DNA of 61,555 nt, filler included, from Collodictyon triciliatum (taxonomy: Eukaryota), in NCBI GenBank assembly GCA_043381765.1. It is 3 parts of 3 records of this genome, joined end to end, with 100 filler letters (N's around TTAATTAATTAA, not from the genome) between each part and the next. Parts side by side here need not be neighbours in the genome. Positions count along the whole stretch, not along the records: positions 50,320 to 61,555 come from JBHJMP010000972.1; 2 more parts are not named here. One strand, 5' to 3'. The stretch's first letter is position 1, and every line of letters begins with the position of its first letter. Below the pieces are notes generated by a model. It did not search any database and was not told the origin of the DNA. It saw only the letters and a list, made by a program, of their open reading frames with translations. Shown piece by piece: positions 54,872-61,555 of the stretch. A program made the position numbers and the translations under genes.

Positions 54872-57800
54872 TTATTCAGAGAATTCCTCATATTTCGAAT
54901 CATATATCAGACTCTGTTATATTGATAAAAACATATATATATATATGAAGATGAAGCTTAGGCTAAAGATAAGGAAATATGGTATGGGGAGGGCAAAGGA
55001 AACCTTTTCTATCTCGCATATGGCCGGGATGTATGTGGACTTTATCCCAAAGGCAGGGATGAAGCGAATAGCTAGCTTAATCGTATCTAAATGGCTTCCA
55101 CAATCTTCTATAAAATTATTTTCAGTGATTAATCGACATGTCCATATCAGATTAATTAAGATGGGGTTGGGGAAGTCCTCTGAATTTTCTAGATGAAAAT
55201 TTTTTTTGATTATGTTCCTACGATCTATCCAACTCATGCACTTTAAGATAGTCTGGTGCACAGGATAAGCTGATGTTTGCATTTGCCTTATTAAAGCTCT
55301 GAGTGCCTGGATTATAGTAAGTCGCCGACAAAGGTTTGATAGAATCTATATGCATACATGCATCAAAAGAAAAATTGATAATAATTATTAATCATGAATT
55401 CTTCAAGAGCGCTCTGTGAACTAAATAAAAAAAATGTTTGGCCTCTAAATGTAACAAAGGAATCAAAAAGGAAAAAAAAGGCAAGTATAAGCACTAATTT
55501 TTTTGAAACATCTAATCAGTGATTATGATTTGAATGTTGAAATTACCTTAATTACTATTTTTCTCGACTCATTAGCCAAAGGGTGACTATCTGACACTTC
55601 AAGTAGCTCATACATGATAACTCCAAGATAGTTAAATAAAACTCTAAATCCGTTCCCTTCCTCATACTTTTAAAAAAAGGAACTATTTTATCCACCCTCT
55701 CATTCCTTTACAAATAATCTGTCAAAAATAAAGGAAGAAAAGGAAGACAAGGGTATTTATATTAATGAAACTGACCCATTCGATTGCACATTCACATTCG
55801 CTCATGGACAAAATCATTCTGCAAGAGGCATGTTTAATCTCGCACCTATTGAGAGTATAAGTGAATAAATATAGTTCAGAGCCAATCATACGAACATCTA
55901 CATCTTCAACAAAAAAGAAAAAAAAGGTACGGTGTCCCATGGTGTCCGAGAATAGATAAGATGCTATCAATCAACCCAATATGAATGCAGTAAATATGAT
56001 ATTCGTGCTTTTCTGATTGCTACGATTTACAAGATCATCGAGTTTAAGTCATATAATATAATTATTCGTGTCATAACACTCTAGAGTGATAAAAAAAAAA
56101 GTTTAATTTATTGACTTGAGAATGCATTGGCGTTTTTTTTTATGAAATTCTCACTTCATTGAATATTTTCAAACAACACTCGATAATATCAATCGAAAAG
56201 CTAGCATCGATATTCATTCGGTTGCTTCTGGCCTCTTCCAGCAGTCTTTTTGACGCCAACTTCAAAAACGAATAGATACTTTCCTCTTCACAAAAGTATT
56301 TATACGTTTAATTGATTTATTTACACATTTATTTGCCATTATTATCATTAAAATTATGATTGAAAATCGGCTTTATAGAAAAATTGTATATATTGCTTCG
56401 GTTTTATACTTGAATTGAATCTGTTAAAGAAAGACTGCGAGCCGTCTTCGATGTCGCACTCAAAGTCCCTTGACTGACATATGGGCATAATGAATTCTAT
56501 AATTCCATAAGATTTATTATTTCCGACAATACTGATTTTCTGTAATTCGGAGATATACAGAAATCGAACAAAACATAATACCTGGTTCTATATCCTCTGG
56601 TACTATAAAAAGCAGCTCTTTTGCTCGAAATTCGGGTGGAATATCAATGGTGCATCGATCTGCATGGGTTTGAACTATAGACGTACTCTCACCAATACTA
56701 TCGCCCTCTATTTTGTGGTAGTATAACAATTTTATGTCACGTGATTTTAATCCTTTTAAAAAGTAATTTTTTTTTGTGGCAGCTTATTAATTTATTAGCG
56801 ATTTCGAGAAAAGCCTCATAAAATTATTGAAACGAAAAAGATTTATTTTCTTCTTCAAGACCTGGAACAACATCCAAAGGAACATTTGAGATTAATTGAC
56901 CATTCATGCTACTGTTGAGAGTCGTCAGCGTTGTATTTTGGCCATAGAATTCATTCGTATGATATACACCAGACATCCTTTTAAAGAATGCTTCGTCAGA
57001 TTCTGATTTTACTCTTCGTGCTCTACCGAGTAACTCATCCATCTGTATAAATATATGTGTGTCAATTTTATTATTAATGTGATAATAAAATTATGAGGAT
57101 GAATACTGATGATATTGATGATATTGATGATATTGATGATATTGATGATATTGATGATATTGATGATATTGATGATATTGATGATATTGATGATATTGAT
57201 GATATCGTTTATGATAATAAACCTGGGCACCCCTCATATATACAATCCCGTCCATATGCTTGTAATCAATTTCAAATGAATCGAGTTTCTTTAGAATGAT
57301 TTTTATATTTGCAACATTTCCAGTAACTTCATTTGATACGAAACATCCAAATTCCTCGATAAACTCATCTTCAGTCAAAGAAAAAGGGTATCCCTAATCA
57401 AAATTTAGTGAAATTATGCTACAGTTTGTTTATGCTGTAGTTAGCATACCACAAACCATGAAAATAGGAAGCGGTATAATGTCCAACCCGACATCTGATA
57501 TATATTTTGTGACAAAATCCTGGTCAAAGAACATATCTTCCTGTTTTGTTTAATTGTGAACGAATATATTAACATTAATATATATTTGGGATATACATTT
57601 ATTTTAAAGAAATGTTGATTTTCCAATAGTTCCTTTTTCAGACTTTTGCTATTAGAGCGAAAAAAATATAATTCTTACATTTTCCTCACTACATGGTAAA
57701 TGGAAAACTGACTTTGTTGTAGAACTTTTTAACAATTCTTGTGTTTGAACAATTACGTCCTGTTTATCATTGTAAAATCAATCAAAGAACTTATCTTATG

Positions 57801-60502
57801 CTTTAATAGGCAAAAAAAATAAATTACCCCAAGATAGTTACTCACGGCCGTATATTTGGAATTCATCTAATTAAGGAGTTTCTATGTTAACATAATTTAA
57901 AACTCTAACTCGGTCACATTGATGATTACTTCCAAAATAATAATGATAAAAATTGTATAGTTTCTAGCTATATTACATGAAATAACTTTCCCATTTTTGA
58001 GCCTTTTATGAAATGGTAAAGATTGTCTGGTAAAGTTTCTCGATTAAATTTCATCAATAAATTGAAATCATAGGTGACCGGAATCTATTGTTTGTTTGTT
58101 TTTTTGGTTTAATATACGTTATTTTGGAGAACATAATCCACAACCACTTTTATTACCTTTGATATTCTATGTAATACGGACACATTTGATTGATTTTCTC
58201 GAATAATAAGAGGGTTATCTGAATGCTTGTGTAAAATTATCCTGCGTTATTTAATGTTAAATTGATTATATGACCTTCCCCTGAAAAAAATAATTAATAT
58301 CATAATTCTAATTTGTGGTTTAATCAATAACGAACTTTATCGCTTCATTGGATGACAATTTTTCAGTTATATGCAAGTCTCCTATGGACTTAAGAAGTGA
58401 TATGATAGGGTCTTTGGCCTATTTTTTTAGATAATTTAGTTAATTTCTGTTTTGAAGTCCTCCAATTCATAAAATAATTAATCGATCTTTGCATGACAAT
58501 CCTTAGAATATCACCGCTGCAGTGGATTGAAAAAGAAGGCGATAGTCATCTATTCCGTGAAGGTTGTTGGGCAATCCTTTTTCTTTCATGTTCTAAATTT
58601 CGTCAATAATAATGTTATCTTGCTTTCGGCTTAATATAGTAGTAATAGAGTTTACCTTTTTCTCGAATTTTATAGCTTGCTGATATAGTGTGGCCAATAT
58701 GGATTCAGACCACATGTTTCTCATAAATCCCATCATTTGTTTCTAAAGTTATTATATAGCTTACACAAAGTATTTATGATTCAAGATTTGAAATATTTAT
58801 TACGTTTCTATTTCTTGATAGTAAAAATGTAGGAACAAAATGTATTTCGTAGCTTTCTTTTCTTCTTTTGTTTATGTTCCCCAGATCCATGAGCTATATA
58901 TCGAATAACAGATTTAGATATTCAGATAAATTTGGTAAAGGTGTTTGGTTGTTTACTAACTCAAAGAAACCTTTCCATTAATCGAGGTAAAAATCAGTTT
59001 CACCAACTCCGAGTAAATATATCGGCACAATAGAAGCTTGCGTGAAACAGCCTAAATTTATTATTTTTTGTTTGAGTTTTAGATATTTTAAATGAAATAA
59101 TGAATCTACCTGATCACGTGAATTTTTTCTGATAATTATACTTCTACCCCCAGGGGTATACGTAGTATGACACATGACTATCGACAAAGATCCTACATCC
59201 ATCCCTTTGATATATATATGCCATTTTAGGATGAGATTGATAAAACATATGAATGAAATGTAACAGAATAAGTCCAACCTAGAAGGGTGCATAATCTCTC
59301 TACCACTGATGTTTGTTTCAATTGCACTCCATCTATAAAATAAAAGGATATTCCTTCAAAATAAATAAATTACACAAATATTTGTATTACTAAAGAAACC
59401 TTCCGCATTATCAAAGTCACAACTCGATAGGAGCTTTACAATAGCGAGCCCCTTTTTTTATATTCATTTTTTTAGTTGTAAAAATTCTGCCAAAAAGCCA
59501 TTTCATGAAAACTTCTATTGATTAAGATACCCTTATGTTGAGTACACGGAAGGAAAACTGTAAATTATACTTGAAATATGTCATCTATTAGTGCTTTTCC
59601 CAATCCAAAGAAATCAAGGGCGGCCTGCAGCATATCTAGTTTTAAAAATTGCATTTTCTTTTGTATTCCATGAAAAATGCATATGTGTTAGACCATCTCA
59701 TATAGACGTTCAATAAGTATCGAAAATCTCAAATAAATGCCTGGAATTGAAATATCAATGTTTCCAATAGCCGGTTCTTTTTATCATGAGATTCACTCTT
59801 CTCTGTTTCTTCATGACTCCCCACCAAACCGGAAGACATAAGAGCGCACCTCCATTTTTCTGGAATTATAAAAATTAAGCATGTGTGTGTTGGGTGCGTA
59901 ATATCTCAATAAAATCTATTTTTCCTACCAAGCATGATTTAGAAAAATAAAATAAAATCTTTTCCCTTCAATCTAATCAGGGGGAAATTCTTACCAGAAG
60001 AAAAAGTGGAGATATATTGAGTAGGTATAGATAATGCTTGTAAAATTGGAAACTCATTTTCTCCTTGGCCTTCTCCTCCGACCATGAGAGTCTTTTGATA
60101 TTATTTTAGGATCAAAAATCAAATCACGGTTTATATTTACTTCAAACAGAAAAAATATTACTCTGTCAGAGAACACAATGTCTGATTGCCATGTGAGAAA
60201 GTCTCTTGTGTGACCCAGGAGGATTCTATACTTTGTTATCTGGATGTTTGAATTTATTAATTCAACGTAATTACCGGTCATAGAAAGGAAATACCAGATA
60301 CAAATCGAGTGTATTTGTCATAATTTTGCTGTAATGGTAAAGAACTCCGCACGATATTATCGTTAAAATTCCAACGACCCTCCCCAATTCCAAACAAAGA
60401 ATTCAATATGATTTCTTCATAGTTCCAAGCGTGTCTCAGTTCGTCAGTCTCGGTTTTAGTAGAAATCTATGCGAGAAACAAAATATGTGGGGTTGTCGAA
60501 TA

Positions 60503-60546
<44 letters not shown>

Positions 60547-61205
60547 CTGGCGGGTGACGTGATAGATTTACGCGCTAAGAAATTGTGAGGCCTTCTTTTA
60601 AAACAAAGGTTTGATAAATCAAATATATTATGCGCACTACCAGCGAAGAAATCGCGTGTCTTGTGAAGCAACCAACCCACTCAGTGCTTCCAGCAATTAC
60701 CAAGCTTGAAGATATTGTTTTACCTTAAATCACACATTGACATATATTACATTAGCAATATTTCATCGTTCGCAAAAAGTGCAGGATATACCCGTCAGCT
60801 CATCTAGAGCTTCTCTAAAAAGCCGAGGAAATACACTTTCAACACATTTTTCCATGTTAAGATCATCGACTTCATTGGCGTTGGCTGAACCATAAACGAT
60901 TGTCGCAGTTTTCATATTCATCTATTTTTTTCTCAGTTATGATAAGGTTATGATTACAAGAGTGATGATGGCATTCGTAATATATGCAAGAAAAACAAGT
61001 TCATAGATAAATGGCTAATACGTTTTACTTGAAAAAAATGGACAACTAACTTGCAACAAAATCTATTTCTCACAGTTTTGGGATGAATTTTGAAAATGAA
61101 TTGGCCACTCACAGTCTTTTCACCCTTCTTGATGCTTTCTGACAGTCTATGAACGAATTGACTTGTGGCAATCTTGTACGCATCGCGCACAAGCTTTGGT
61201 GGCAT
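54872..61205 (-). CDS. Highly divergent myosin-head-like protein (probable pseudo-ATPase) with a non-IQ, helical tail; ~34 short exons, ~1050 aa
   Basis: Successive GT-AG exons give segments collinear with the myosin motor: SSLVIAG, IILNSLFG..NFN, GENEFPILQAL, ALDFFGL..IDDIFQGLAIVKLLSSCDF, LCTLLGMDVGSL..TYTPGGRSII, LCRYIYSELVKLIFTSIN, IISLL, VTYDFNLLMKFNRETLPDNL, FDQDFV, GYPFSLTEDEFIEEF..VYMRGAQ. The start MPPK is at 61205 and TAA at 54872. One junction near 60470-60580 is not phase-resolved. Confidence 0.8.
57108..57205. repeat. (GATGATATT)n 9-mer repeat in the intron after the myosin converter exon
   Basis: About 10 copies, directly visible. Confidence 0.95.
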
Positions 61206-61555
61206 TTTGATTGTATTTTGGTAATCAAACAAAAAAGCTACCGTTTGAATAATAGAATTTTGAGTAATGGGCCTCTTACTTTCGGAATGGTTATTATTCA
61301 GATTAATATCATTTTTAAAAATAAGGATTTATGCTTCGTCAACTCTTTAACATCGTGGTAATCCGGTGCATTTTAGAGGTTTGAATGAAACTTTATAATT
61401 ATCATAACAGAACTTTTGTCAGGTACGATTTTATATTTGCGCTAAATCAGGTGTAGTGTACAAAATAAAGAGCCGAATATCGGATACTGATACTCTTCCT
61501 TCTTCCTTTTTTTTTTTTTTTTTTTTTTTCCATTTTTTTTTCACTTTTTTTTTTT

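What the first reader, a model, noticed from the sequence alone, without database searches (positions are those of the whole stretch)
57223..61205. Hidden full-length pseudo-myosin head with all nucleotide-binding motifs eroded
Seen: about 24 short exons, mostly too small for the ORF track, splice into ~660 aa that follow the myosin motor domain in the correct order and at about the expected length. Observed segments against the myosin consensus: SQFVHRLSESIKKG (SVLHNLRERY); PRLFREALDELTGKTISSSLVIAG (PHIFAIADxAYRSM..QSIIISG); IILNSLFG (PILEAFG); GENEFPILQAL (GERNYHIFYQL); ALDFFGLGKALIDDIFQGLAIVKLLSSCDF (AMxxxGFS..IFRILAAILHLGNIEF); LCTLLGMDVGSL (AAELLGVD..L); LCRYIYSELVKLIFTSIN (LAKALYSRLFDWIVNRIN); VTYDFNLLMKFNRETL (VTYDVxGFLEKNRDTL); FDQDFV (FDxELV); GYPFSLTEDEFIEEF (GYPxRxTFEEFLQRY); VYMRGAQ (VFLRAGQ). 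Established: myosin ATPase needs the P-loop GESGAGKT, switch I NxNSSR and switch II DIxGFE. Here these positions read about GSTDAHNI (splice-dependent, but no GKT follows VIAG in either reading), NFNDNI and HFVPTFLL. Inference: the ORF is intact over ~6.3 kb with good splice sites, which suggests a maintained, catalytically dead myosin scaffold. It is more degenerate than myosin-18, which keeps its P-loop, and may be an undescribed class.
Basis: partly seen in the sequence, partly recalled or inferred. Interest (0 to 1): 0.85.

Follow-up and report, generated by a model that had tools for sequence, protein, structure and literature searches.

The report
Motif-less, tail-less myosin-head-like gene
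A spliced, transcribed 23-exon gene of an unidentified flagellated protist encodes a 745-residue protein whose rear two-thirds still resemble a myosin motor, but which has none of the ATP-handling motifs, so it is probably a dead relative of a motor protein rather than a working motor.

Summary
They join through 22 short introns (21 GT-AG, 1 GC-AG) into an open 745-codon frame, 61205 to 56824. cDNA-like contigs of one public run confirm three of the introns.

A profile I built from 119 real myosins gives the spliced product 35.5 bits, against 7.2 for the best of 2000 shuffles. hhalign gives 97% probability. The signal lies only in residues 258-380 and 496-717.

Choosing exons with a profile inflates scores. 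With the same freedom, 25 genomic and 108 codon-shuffled controls reached at most 20.3 and 26.5 bits, against 33.5 for the target. Real significance is therefore about 10^-3, not 10^-13.

The N-terminal third, where the P-loop and switch I should lie, is not distinguishable from controls. No frame encodes a Walker A, switch I or switch II motif. No orthologue, tail domain or IQ motif was found.

Verdict: probably a myosin-derived pseudo-motor. A fold prediction of the spliced product could not be run.

The parts
61206..61555 (-). 5' untranslated region, at least to 61492 and probably past the window end
   Evidence: X1 contig record 6 lies unbroken on 61492-61109 and runs over the window end. 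An in-frame stop at about 61329-61331 lies upstream of the first ATG.
61113..61205 (-). exon 1 (start codon at 61205, phase 0 out)
   Evidence: First ATG of the frame and a GTGAGT donor. X1 record 6 stops fitting at 61109 with 5 letters left over, as expected at a splice. The codon-usage gene finder, which does not use the myosin profile, also picked it.
60792..60921 (-). exon 2
   Evidence: Open frame, ATAG acceptor and GTATAT donor. Also picked by the myosin-blind finder. No RNA joint listed.
60641..60723 (-). exon 3 (candidate P-loop region; an alternative donor at 60677/60676 gives a product 12 residues shorter)
   Evidence: Both donors keep the frame. The short form uses GTTGG, like the RNA-confirmed donor of intron 10. 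No RNA evidence decides between them.
60302..60466 (-). exon 4 (holds K-T-E-T and N-D-N-I-V-R, the candidate P-loop end and switch I)
   Evidence: 55-codon open frame, ATAG acceptor and GTATCT donor. The match to the myosin profile here is not significant.
60141..60239 (-). exon 5
   Evidence: Open frame, CCAG acceptor and GTAAAT donor. Inferred.
59995..60091 (-). exon 6
   Evidence: Its donor at 59995/59994 is confirmed by the X1 joint 59859-59995. The acceptor is inferred. Also picked by the myosin-blind finder.
59741..59859 (-). exon 7
   Evidence: Both ends lie at X1 joints: 59859-59995, and 59622-59739 with 5 ambiguous letters. The only AG-ending placement of the second joint gives a GC-AG intron, 59740-59625.
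59571..59624 (-). exon 8 (start of the best myosin-like block)
   Evidence: The acceptor lies at the X1 joint. The GTATAA donor sits one codon before a stop. The automatic spliced alignment ends the exon at the same base.
59391..59451 (-). exon 9
   Evidence: Recovered exactly by the automatic profile-guided spliced alignment. Covered by X1 record 5.
59279..59332 (-). exon 10
   Evidence: Its donor 59279/59278 is confirmed by the X1 joint 59203-59278, cut +1. Also picked by the myosin-blind finder.
59110..59204 (-). exon 11
   Evidence: The acceptor is confirmed by the same X1 joint. Recovered exactly. Exons 10+11 alone align at profile 329-367 and rank 8 of 2001.
58971..59051 (-). exon 12
   Evidence: As a bare stop-to-stop fragment it matches profile 377-398 with 3.5 bits. 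Covered by X1 record 5.
58804..58893 (-). exon 13 (candidate switch II position, reads V-P-T-F with a 3-column gap)
   Evidence: Open frame, ATAG acceptor and GTAATA donor. Placement by hmmalign. Inferred.
58656..58742 (-). exon 14
   Evidence: Open frame, TTAG acceptor and GTAAAC donor. The donor end is shared with the automatic alignment.
58515..58592 (-). exon 15
   Evidence: Open frame, TTAG acceptor and GTGATA donor. Picked by the myosin-blind finder. Skipped by the automatic profile alignment.
58336..58418 (-). exon 16
   Evidence: Recovered exactly.
58157..58241 (-). exon 17
   Evidence: Recovered exactly.
57977..58084 (-). exon 18
   Evidence: Recovered exactly. As a bare fragment it matches profile 532-560 with 3.0 bits.
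57846..57866 (-). exon 19 (7-codon micro-exon, least certain)
   Evidence: TTAG acceptor and GTGAGT donor. Picked by the myosin-blind finder. Dropping it lowers the HMM score from 35.5 to 33.2 bits.
57679..57759 (-). exon 20
   Evidence: ACAG acceptor and GTAAGA donor. The donor end is shared. Inferred.
57457..57540 (-). exon 21
   Evidence: ACAG acceptor and GTTTGT donor. Picked by the myosin-blind finder.
57223..57393 (-). exon 22 (converter-like part, G-Y-P kept)
   Evidence: 57-codon open frame. Recovered exactly.
56824..57042 (-). exon 23 with stop codon TAA at 56826-56824
   Evidence: Covered by X1 record 4 from 57038. In X1 the stop reads CAA and the frame ends 25 codons later. No Pfam family found.
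56253..56823 (-). 3' untranslated region with a spliced intron, 56581-56497
   Evidence: X1 record 4 runs on to 56253, with the joint 56496-56582 having CT..AC ends. No Pfam family found in its frames.

Best explanation
This is a real, transcribed and spliced protein-coding gene: minus strand, 23 exons, 745 residues, with no tail domain and no IQ neck. From about residue 180-260 to about 720 the product descends from a myosin motor domain, covering the upper-50K helices through the lower 50K, the SH1 region and the converter. [quoted passage not shown]

By inference only, it keeps a myosin-head-like fold and acts without a nucleotide cycle. It could be a static actin-binding or tethering protein, or a scaffold or decoy, as described for other ATP-blind myosin heads.

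What is shown and what is inferred:
- Shown: the exon structure (in part), transcription, the collinear profile similarity of the rear two-thirds, and the absence of the motifs.
- Inferred: homology of the N-terminal third, the fold, maintenance by selection, and any actin binding.
For: Gene structure:
- All 22 introns have GT-AG or GC-AG ends and are 49-191 nt long. Exons have 37.1% GC against 26.2% for introns.
- Three introns are confirmed as CT..AC joints in X1 contigs. Those contigs also carry poly-T loose ends and an adaptor-like loose end, which marks them as cDNA.
- Codon log-odds trained on the neighbouring dynein gene favour the annotated frame: +6.9 bits, against -49.9 and -68.2 for the other frames and -85 to -128 for introns.

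Myosin likeness:
- Own HMM from 119 myosins gives 35.5 bits. The best of 2000 shuffles gives 7.2.
- The two matched domains are collinear: profile 290-400 with residues 258-380, and profile 504-730 with residues 495-717.
- hhalign gives 97.1% probability, P 5e-11, query 182-689 against template 245-748.
- Parts tested alone: the core gives 31.3 bits (best of 1000 shuffles 2.9) and the C-terminal part 10.4 bits (best 4.8).
- Splice variants score 33.2-36.2 bits.

Controls that allow for exon choice:
- An automatic profile-guided spliced aligner recovers 6 of my exons exactly and shares one end with 8 more.
- Its product scores 33.5 bits. The 25 genomic controls reach at most 20.3 bits and the 108 codon-shuffled controls at most 26.5, so 0 of 133 reach the target.
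- Glocal score 0.1 against -33.2 +/- 11.4 and -26.8 +/- 6.4.

Pieces defined without the profile:
- Exons 10+11, whose junction is RNA-defined, rank 8 of 2001 and align at the expected profile columns 329-367.
- Bare open-frame fragments of exons 12 and 18 match columns 377-398 and 532-560.

Motifs: none of the three occurs in any frame of the gene's strand. hmmalign puts V-P-T-F plus a gap at switch II.
Against: - Pfam's own models found nothing in read-through translations of the three frames at E <= 10.
- Single exons find no myosin among PDB sequences and give no usable hit in the protein atlas.
- Chaining bare open-frame fragments scores 6.5 bits, no better than controls (maximum 9.0).
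- Local spliced alignment does not clearly separate the target from 25 controls. At intron penalty -6 the target scores 32.3 against a control maximum of 28.3. At -9 or -12 it scores 25.1 against 27.5.
- One of 90 permutations of the exon-intron blocks reached the target's score (34.8 bits). That null keeps the real exons.
- Allowing for exon choice, significance is only about 10^-3 by tail extrapolation.
- The N-terminal 257 residues show nothing on their own. They do not beat codon-shuffled controls: z 0.4 with 47 of 150 reaching, and z 0.0 with 71 of 150 reaching. The one positive result there is weaker evidence: z 3.5 with 0 of 150 reaching, for a fixed protein against plain shuffles.
- Residues 381-495 are not significant alone.
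- The RNA-defined piece of exons 6-8 is not significant (rank 172).
- Two gene finders that do not use the myosin profile failed to reproduce the model. Their products score -3.1 to -11.3 bits.
- No orthologue was found, so conservation is untested.
- X1 contigs retain introns 9 and 11 and part of intron 8. The stop codon differs between X1 and the window.
Confidence: 0.55

Rival explanations
1. The gene is myosin-derived but no longer functional: a transcribed, decaying relic whose product, if made at all, does nothing.
For: - No orthologue was found among 1.84 billion representatives or by word search.
- All catalytic motifs are gone.
- cDNA contigs keep some introns.
- The stop codon position differs between the window and X1.
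- Substitutions between X1 and the window are only weakly rarer in exons. In the contig pieces listed, I count about 3 in 598 exon bases against about 13 in 951 other bases. This is my own count, it is incomplete and it is not significant.
Against: - The sequence has diverged to about 18% identity with the myosin consensus, yet 745 codons in 23 exons stay open with in-phase splice sites. Neutral decay that deep should have broken the frames, since the stop frequency in introns and off-frames is 0.06-0.08 per codon.
- The annotated frame carries a codon-usage signal that the other frames lack.
- An open path alone is weak evidence, because a longest-ORF search also finds an unrelated open path of 837 codons.
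Confidence: 0.15
2. The gene is a lineage-specific gene unrelated to myosin. The resemblance comes from chance, composition and exon choices guided by the expectation of a myosin.
For: - Profile-guided exon picking alone yields up to 20.3 bits in unrelated DNA of the same window and up to 26.5 bits in codon-shuffled copies.
- Pfam, PDB sequence searches and the atlas see nothing.
- The N-terminal third is at control level.
- The profile was built largely from A+T-rich giant-virus-like myosins, which could favour an A+T-rich gene.
Against: - 0 of 133 controls with the same freedom reach the target.
- The strongest block contains two RNA-confirmed junctions.
- Pieces defined without the profile fall on the expected profile columns in the expected order, with matching spacing: 329-367, 377-398 and 532-560.
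- The two significant blocks are 115 residues apart, against 104 profile columns.
Confidence: 0.2
3. The gene is an active but very divergent myosin whose nucleotide-binding motifs sit in exons I missed.
For: - 19 of the 22 introns are inferred, not RNA-confirmed.
- Exon 3 has two possible donors.
- A K-T-E-T string remains at the expected end of the P-loop.
Against: - No frame of the gene's strand between 55500 and 61555 encodes G....GK[ST], N.N[ST][ST]R or D[IVLF].G[FY]E.
- The introns are short (49-191 nt) and full of stops.
Confidence: 0.03

Closest known systems
Drosophila myosin-18 (and Limulus myosin-3), ATP-blind myosin heads that tether actin (PMC3122231; abstract and passages read)
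   Same: A myosin motor-domain relative that cannot run the ATPase cycle. The paper proposes that such heads act as actin tethers or scaffolds, which is the working model I adopt here.
   Different: - Myosin-18 keeps a near-consensus P-loop and recognisable switch I and II with a few substitutions. It is readily recognised as a myosin and has PDZ and coiled-coil parts.
- The gene here has no recognisable P-loop, switch I or switch II, no tail and no IQ neck, and only its rear two-thirds are detectably myosin-like.
- No biochemistry is available for it.
Trypanosoma cruzi MyHd, 'myosin H-derived' pseudomyosin (PMC7300353; passages read)
   Same: [quoted passage not shown] It is nevertheless expressed and targeted to a specific actin-related structure.
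   Different: MyHd is still called as a myosin head by domain databases and has an identifiable parent class. The protein here is missed by Pfam on frame read-throughs, and no parent class could be assigned. Orthology was not tested and is unlikely.
Myosin motor-like domain of fungal class VII chitin synthases (CHS-7/CsmB; the 'divergent class-17B' of Kollmar and Muhlhausen) (PMC7389182 passage; PMC5583752 passages)
   Same: [quoted passage not shown] This shows that motif-less myosin heads are retained in evolution.
   Different: The fungal domain is fused to a chitin synthase, which supplies its function. The protein here stands alone with about 55 residues after the converter-like part. The organism is a flagellated protist (axonemal dynein in the window), not a fungus.

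Membership tests
Myosin superfamily (motor domain, Pfam PF00063 Myosin_head) | Significant profile match to the motor domain, rear two-thirds (upper 50K to converter) | tested here: met
   - Own HMM of 119 myosins gives 35.5 bits, against 7.2 for the best of 2000 shuffles.
- hhalign gives 97.1% probability.
- 0 of 133 controls with free exon choice reach the target's 33.5 bits.
- Caveat: Pfam's own model could be run only on frame read-throughs, where it found nothing.
Myosin superfamily (motor domain, Pfam PF00063 Myosin_head) | Significant match of the N-terminal third (N-terminal subdomain, P-loop, switch I region) | tested here: not met
   - Residues 1-257 alone: no positive HMMER domain, and hhalign P 0.078 at the wrong place.
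- Spliced alignment against codon-shuffled controls gives z 0.4 and 0.0.
- The only positive result is a fixed-protein global alignment against plain shuffles, z 3.5.
- The length fits: 257 residues against about 290 columns.
Myosin superfamily (motor domain, Pfam PF00063 Myosin_head) | P-loop GESGAGKT (Walker A GxxxxGK[ST]) | tested here: not met
   No G....GK[ST] occurs in any frame of 55500-61555. At the candidate place only K-T-E-T remains, 2 or 14 residues too far from the preceding G depending on the exon 3 donor. The consensus motif is recalled; it is also quoted in PMC3122231.
Myosin superfamily (motor domain, Pfam PF00063 Myosin_head) | Switch I NxNSSR | tested here: not met
   No match in any frame. 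The candidate place reads N-D-N-I-V-R, with both serines replaced.
Myosin superfamily (motor domain, Pfam PF00063 Myosin_head) | Switch II DIxGFE | tested here: not met
   No match on the gene's strand. hmmalign places V-P-T-F followed by a 3-column gap there.
Myosin superfamily (motor domain, Pfam PF00063 Myosin_head) | Myosin motor fold | not testable with these tools
Myosin superfamily (motor domain, Pfam PF00063 Myosin_head) | Neck with IQ motif(s) and a class-defining tail | tested here: not met
   No Pfam family, IQ included, in exon 23 or in the frames downstream of it. Only about 55 residues follow the converter-like part.
Myosin superfamily (motor domain, Pfam PF00063 Myosin_head) | Actin binding and actin-activated ATPase | not testable with these tools
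   Needs the expressed protein.
Described ATP-blind myosin heads (myosin-18, MyHd, class-17B/CHS-7 domain) | Orthology or class membership with one of them | not tested
   No phylogeny was attempted; at about 18% identity to the consensus it would not resolve. None of them appeared in any search. The resemblance is one of kind, not of descent.

The most novel reading that the evidence does not exclude
This is the first member of an undescribed type of stand-alone myosin pseudo-motor: a head with no tail and no neck, all three nucleotide motifs gone, and an N-terminal third remodelled beyond recognition. It is kept under selection in an unsampled flagellate lineage as a nucleotide-independent actin-binding or regulatory module. 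In that reading the rear of the myosin head has been re-used as a self-standing domain.
Probability: 0.25. Interest if true: 0.6.

Novelty: new variant of a known kind. Interest (0 to 1): 0.4.

Why it matters
Myosin heads that have lost catalysis are known but few, and they show what the fold can do without its ATPase cycle. A free-standing, tail-less example from an unsampled protist lineage would be the most reduced case so far. It would also show that standard domain searches miss such genes.

The practical lesson is at least as useful. A similarity score for a hand-spliced gene model overstates significance by many orders of magnitude unless the controls are given the same freedom to choose exons. 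Here the figure fell from a nominal 10^-13 to about 10^-3.

As it stands, this is one orphan gene with no orthologues, no structure and no biochemistry, so its weight is modest.

Tried and rejected
- Whole genome: none is held for this window. The earlier-findings look-up was empty.
- RNA runs: no holder is on record as RNA. X1 is a guessed RNA run holding 0.21 of the words; X2 laid nothing and X3 laid nothing on this gene.
- Longest-ORF gene finder: it finds an open 837-codon path through wrong frames that scores -11.3 bits. An open path is therefore not evidence on its own.
- Codon-usage gene finder trained on the dynein gene: the models are fragmentary, sharing 7, 5 and 4 of 23 exons at three intron penalties, with HMM scores of -3.1 to -9.4 bits. 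It cannot serve as a model made without the myosin profile.
- Pfam on three read-through frames: 0 families. Pfam on exons 4, 22 and 23 and on two downstream frames: none.
- Word-based homologue search with exon 22 against longer proteins: 17 candidates, none at E <= 10.
- Full HMMER search of 1.84 billion representatives with an 876-residue read-through frame: 4 hits, none a relative. P0121 is a Sushi-repeat protein. The other three match the translated tandem repeat of intron 22.
- phmmer of exons 22 and 12 against PDB sequences: no myosin. Protein atlas with exons 22 and 4: no usable hit.
- Fragment chaining and local spliced alignment: neither separates the target from the controls.
- Block permutation of exon-intron units: a poor null, because it keeps the real exons; 1 of 90 reached the target.
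- My early idea that in X1 the frame runs on into a long tail was wrong. With all X1 differences applied, the frame ends 25 codons later.
- An alternative intron (56861-56784) that would join the 88-codon frame at 56783-56517 was rejected. X1 carries a 1-base deletion and two substitutions there, the rate expected of non-coding sequence.
- Organism: not identified. The best matches to a dynein exon are only 38-45% identical.
- Paralogues: none in the window by tblastn.
- Supplements of the papers were closed. The class lists of PMC5583752 may hold comparable orphan myosins that I could not see.

Full report
**What is there**

The window is eukaryotic: A+T-rich, with short introns and scaffold gaps. 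It carries importin-like, P-type ATPase-like and axonemal dynein heavy-chain exons. No whole genome is held for it.

Reading the three frames and then assembling by coordinates gives 23 exons from ATG 61205 to TAA 56824.
- The product has 745 codons.
- The 22 introns are 49-191 nt long. Twenty-one are GT-AG and one is GC-AG.
- Exons have 37.1% G+C and introns 26.2%.

**RNA evidence**

One public run (X1, kind only guessed) holds 0.21 of the sampled words. Three features show that its contigs are cDNA:
- nine joints, eight of which have CT..AC ends, that is, GT..AG on the minus strand;
- poly-T loose ends;
- loose ends that look like a template-switch adaptor (that identification is recalled).

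Three joints fall in this gene and agree with the model: introns 59994-59860, 59278-59205, and 59740-59625. The last has five ambiguous letters, and only a GC-AG placement ends in AG.

Other points from the same contigs:
- One contig covers the 5' UTR unbroken from the window end to the exon 1 donor. The start codon is therefore 61205, and an in-frame stop lies upstream of it.
- Other contigs retain introns 9 and 11 and part of intron 8.
- Downstream of the stop, the transcript runs on to at least 56253 with a further spliced intron (56581-56497).
- X1 differs from the window by about 1%. Its stop codon reads CAA and, with all listed differences applied, its frame ends 25 codons later.
- The joints at 55221-55108, 55003-54855 and 54787-54623 and a poly-A site at 54441 belong to another transcription unit.

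The coding span is 4.4 kb.

**Testing the myosin likeness**

Pfam on read-through translations of the three frames found nothing at E <= 10.

I therefore built my own reference:
- A P-loop DNA pattern found 15 viral contigs.
- Three open frames on giant-virus contigs are bona fide myosin heads, with Pfam E-values of 1e-103 to 1e-113.
- One of them seeded 120 listed myosins.
- 119 of these were aligned and made into an HMM.

Results for the spliced product:
- It scores 35.5 bits. The best of 2000 shuffles scores 7.2.
- There are two collinear domains: profile 290-400 with residues 258-380 (28.3 bits), and profile 504-730 with residues 495-717 (5.9 bits).
- hhalign gives 97.1% probability, P 5e-11, for residues 182-689 against template columns 245-748. 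With a permissive setting, 632 columns align from residue 24 to 723 at 18% identity.
- Splice variants score 33.2-36.2 bits.

Results for separate parts:

| Part | Result |
|---|---|
| Core, residues 258-380 | 31.3 bits; best of 1000 shuffles 2.9 |
| C-terminal part, residues 496-745 | 10.4 bits; best of 1000 shuffles 4.8 |
| Residues 381-495 | not significant |
| Residues 1-257 | not significant |

**Correcting for exon choice**

My exon choices were partly guided by the expected myosin order, so the nominal E-values are biased. Unbiased or myosin-blind attempts mostly lacked power:
- Chaining bare open-frame fragments gives 6.5 bits, against a control maximum of 9.0. The two fragments that do score are exons 12 and 18, at the expected columns 377-398 and 532-560.
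- Two gene finders that do not use the myosin profile did not reproduce the model.

I then wrote a profile-to-DNA aligner that is free to place GT-AG introns.
- In local mode it does not clearly separate the target from 25 control stretches of the window. The scores are 32.3 against a maximum of 28.3 at penalty -6, and 25.1 against 27.5 at -9 or -12.
- In glocal mode (profile 290-700) the target scores 0.1 against -33.2 +/- 11.4, maximum -12.7.
- Its automatic path recovers exons 9, 11, 16, 17, 18 and 22 exactly and shares one boundary with eight more.

HMMER scores of these automatically chosen products:

| Sequence set | Score |
|---|---|
| Target | 33.5 bits |
| 25 genomic controls | at most 20.3 bits |
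| 108 copies with codons shuffled within exons | at most 26.5 bits |
| 90 permutations of exon-intron blocks (keeps the real exons) | 1 of 90 reached 34.8 bits |

From the control tails I estimate a true significance of about 10^-3.

Independent of any choice of mine, exons 10+11 joined at the RNA-confirmed junction rank 8 of 2001 and align at the expected columns 329-367. The exon 6-8 piece is not significant. Codon log-odds trained on the dynein gene favour the annotated frame: +6.9 bits, against -49.9 and -68.2 for the other two frames.

**The N-terminal third and the motifs**

With free exon choice, exons 1-7 score like codon-shuffled copies against profile 75-289 and 131-289: z 0.4 and 0.0, with 47 and 71 of 150 controls reaching the target. 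The only positive result is a fixed-protein global alignment against plain shuffles: z 3.5, with 0 of 150 reaching. Homology of this part is therefore unproven, although its length fits.

At the places where the motifs would lie:
- The P-loop region keeps only K-T-E-T, 2 or 14 residues too far from the preceding glycine, depending on the exon 3 donor.
- Switch I reads N-D-N-I-V-R.
- Switch II reads V-P-T-F followed by a gap.

No frame of the strand encodes any of the three consensus motifs. G-Y-P and the R-x-x-Q of the converter region are kept. No IQ motif or tail domain follows.

**Relatives and precedents**

No orthologue was found, either by word search or by HMMER against 1.84 billion representatives. 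There is no paralogue in the window.

Myosin heads without a working nucleotide site are already described:
- Drosophila myosin-18 and Limulus myosin-3 are proposed actin tethers (PMC3122231, passages).
- T. cruzi MyHd is called a pseudomyosin because it lacks the P-loop (PMC7300353, passages).
- The CHS-7 myosin-like domain lacks the P-loop and both switches (PMC7389182, passage).
- Very divergent orphans and class 17B are set aside in the myosin census (PMC5583752, passages).

A search for 'pseudomyosin' and similar terms found 5 papers, none on a stand-alone tail-less form. Paper supplements were closed.

**Verdict**

- Most likely (0.55): an expressed, myosin-derived pseudo-motor that lacks catalysis, neck and tail.
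- Rivals: an unrelated gene with chance resemblance (0.2), a decaying relic (0.15), and an active myosin with hidden exons (0.03).

The decisive test is a fold prediction or HHpred run on the spliced product, which could not be run here.

Noticed in passing
window 52898-54100 (minus strand): An intronless 400-codon frame with 58.7% G+C, set in an A+T-rich region. It matches Pfam GH113 (beta-mannanase family) at 9.2e-58 and has a hydrophobic N-terminal stretch. Contigs of X1 and X3 cover it, with a poly-T loose end at 52848, which indicates a polyadenylated transcript. It is a candidate gene transfer from bacteria.
   Followed up: partly
window 57100-57205: About 12 copies of a 9-base tandem repeat lie inside intron 22. 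Read through in the exon 22 frame they would add a Y-H-Q repeat and then a stop. This translated repeat caused three spurious hits in the large protein search.
   Followed up: partly
window 56824-56826 and 56749-56765: The stop codon of the gene is TAA in the window and CAA in X1. X1 also has a 1-base deletion and a substitution just downstream, so its frame ends 25 codons later. The C-terminal end is therefore variable between the two sources.
   Followed up: yes
window 59625-59740: A GC-AG intron, supported by one cDNA contig. The joint has 5 ambiguous letters and only 26 letters on its shorter side.
   Followed up: partly
window 54441-55345 (minus strand): A separate downstream transcription unit with three spliced introns (55221-55108, 55003-54855, 54787-54623) and a poly-A site at 54441. 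Its 142-codon frame gives only weak Pfam hints: TMEM237 at E 0.028 and PCMT at E 0.15.
   Followed up: partly
window 60507-60548: A run of about 42 T (minus-strand sense) lies inside intron 3. Similar long homopolymer and microsatellite runs occur throughout the window, together with two runs of N at about 9.9-10.9 kb and about 29.0 kb.
   Followed up: no
window 31700-50000 (minus strand): An axonemal dynein heavy-chain gene in many exons. The best database matches to one 227-residue exon are only 38-45% identical, so the organism belongs to a poorly sampled flagellated lineage.
   Followed up: partly
window 57038: An X1 contig begins here with an adaptor-like loose end, 4 bases inside exon 23. 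The genomic bases just upstream resemble the adaptor's 3' end, so this looks like a template-switching artefact rather than a transcription start. The adaptor sequence is recalled.
   Followed up: no
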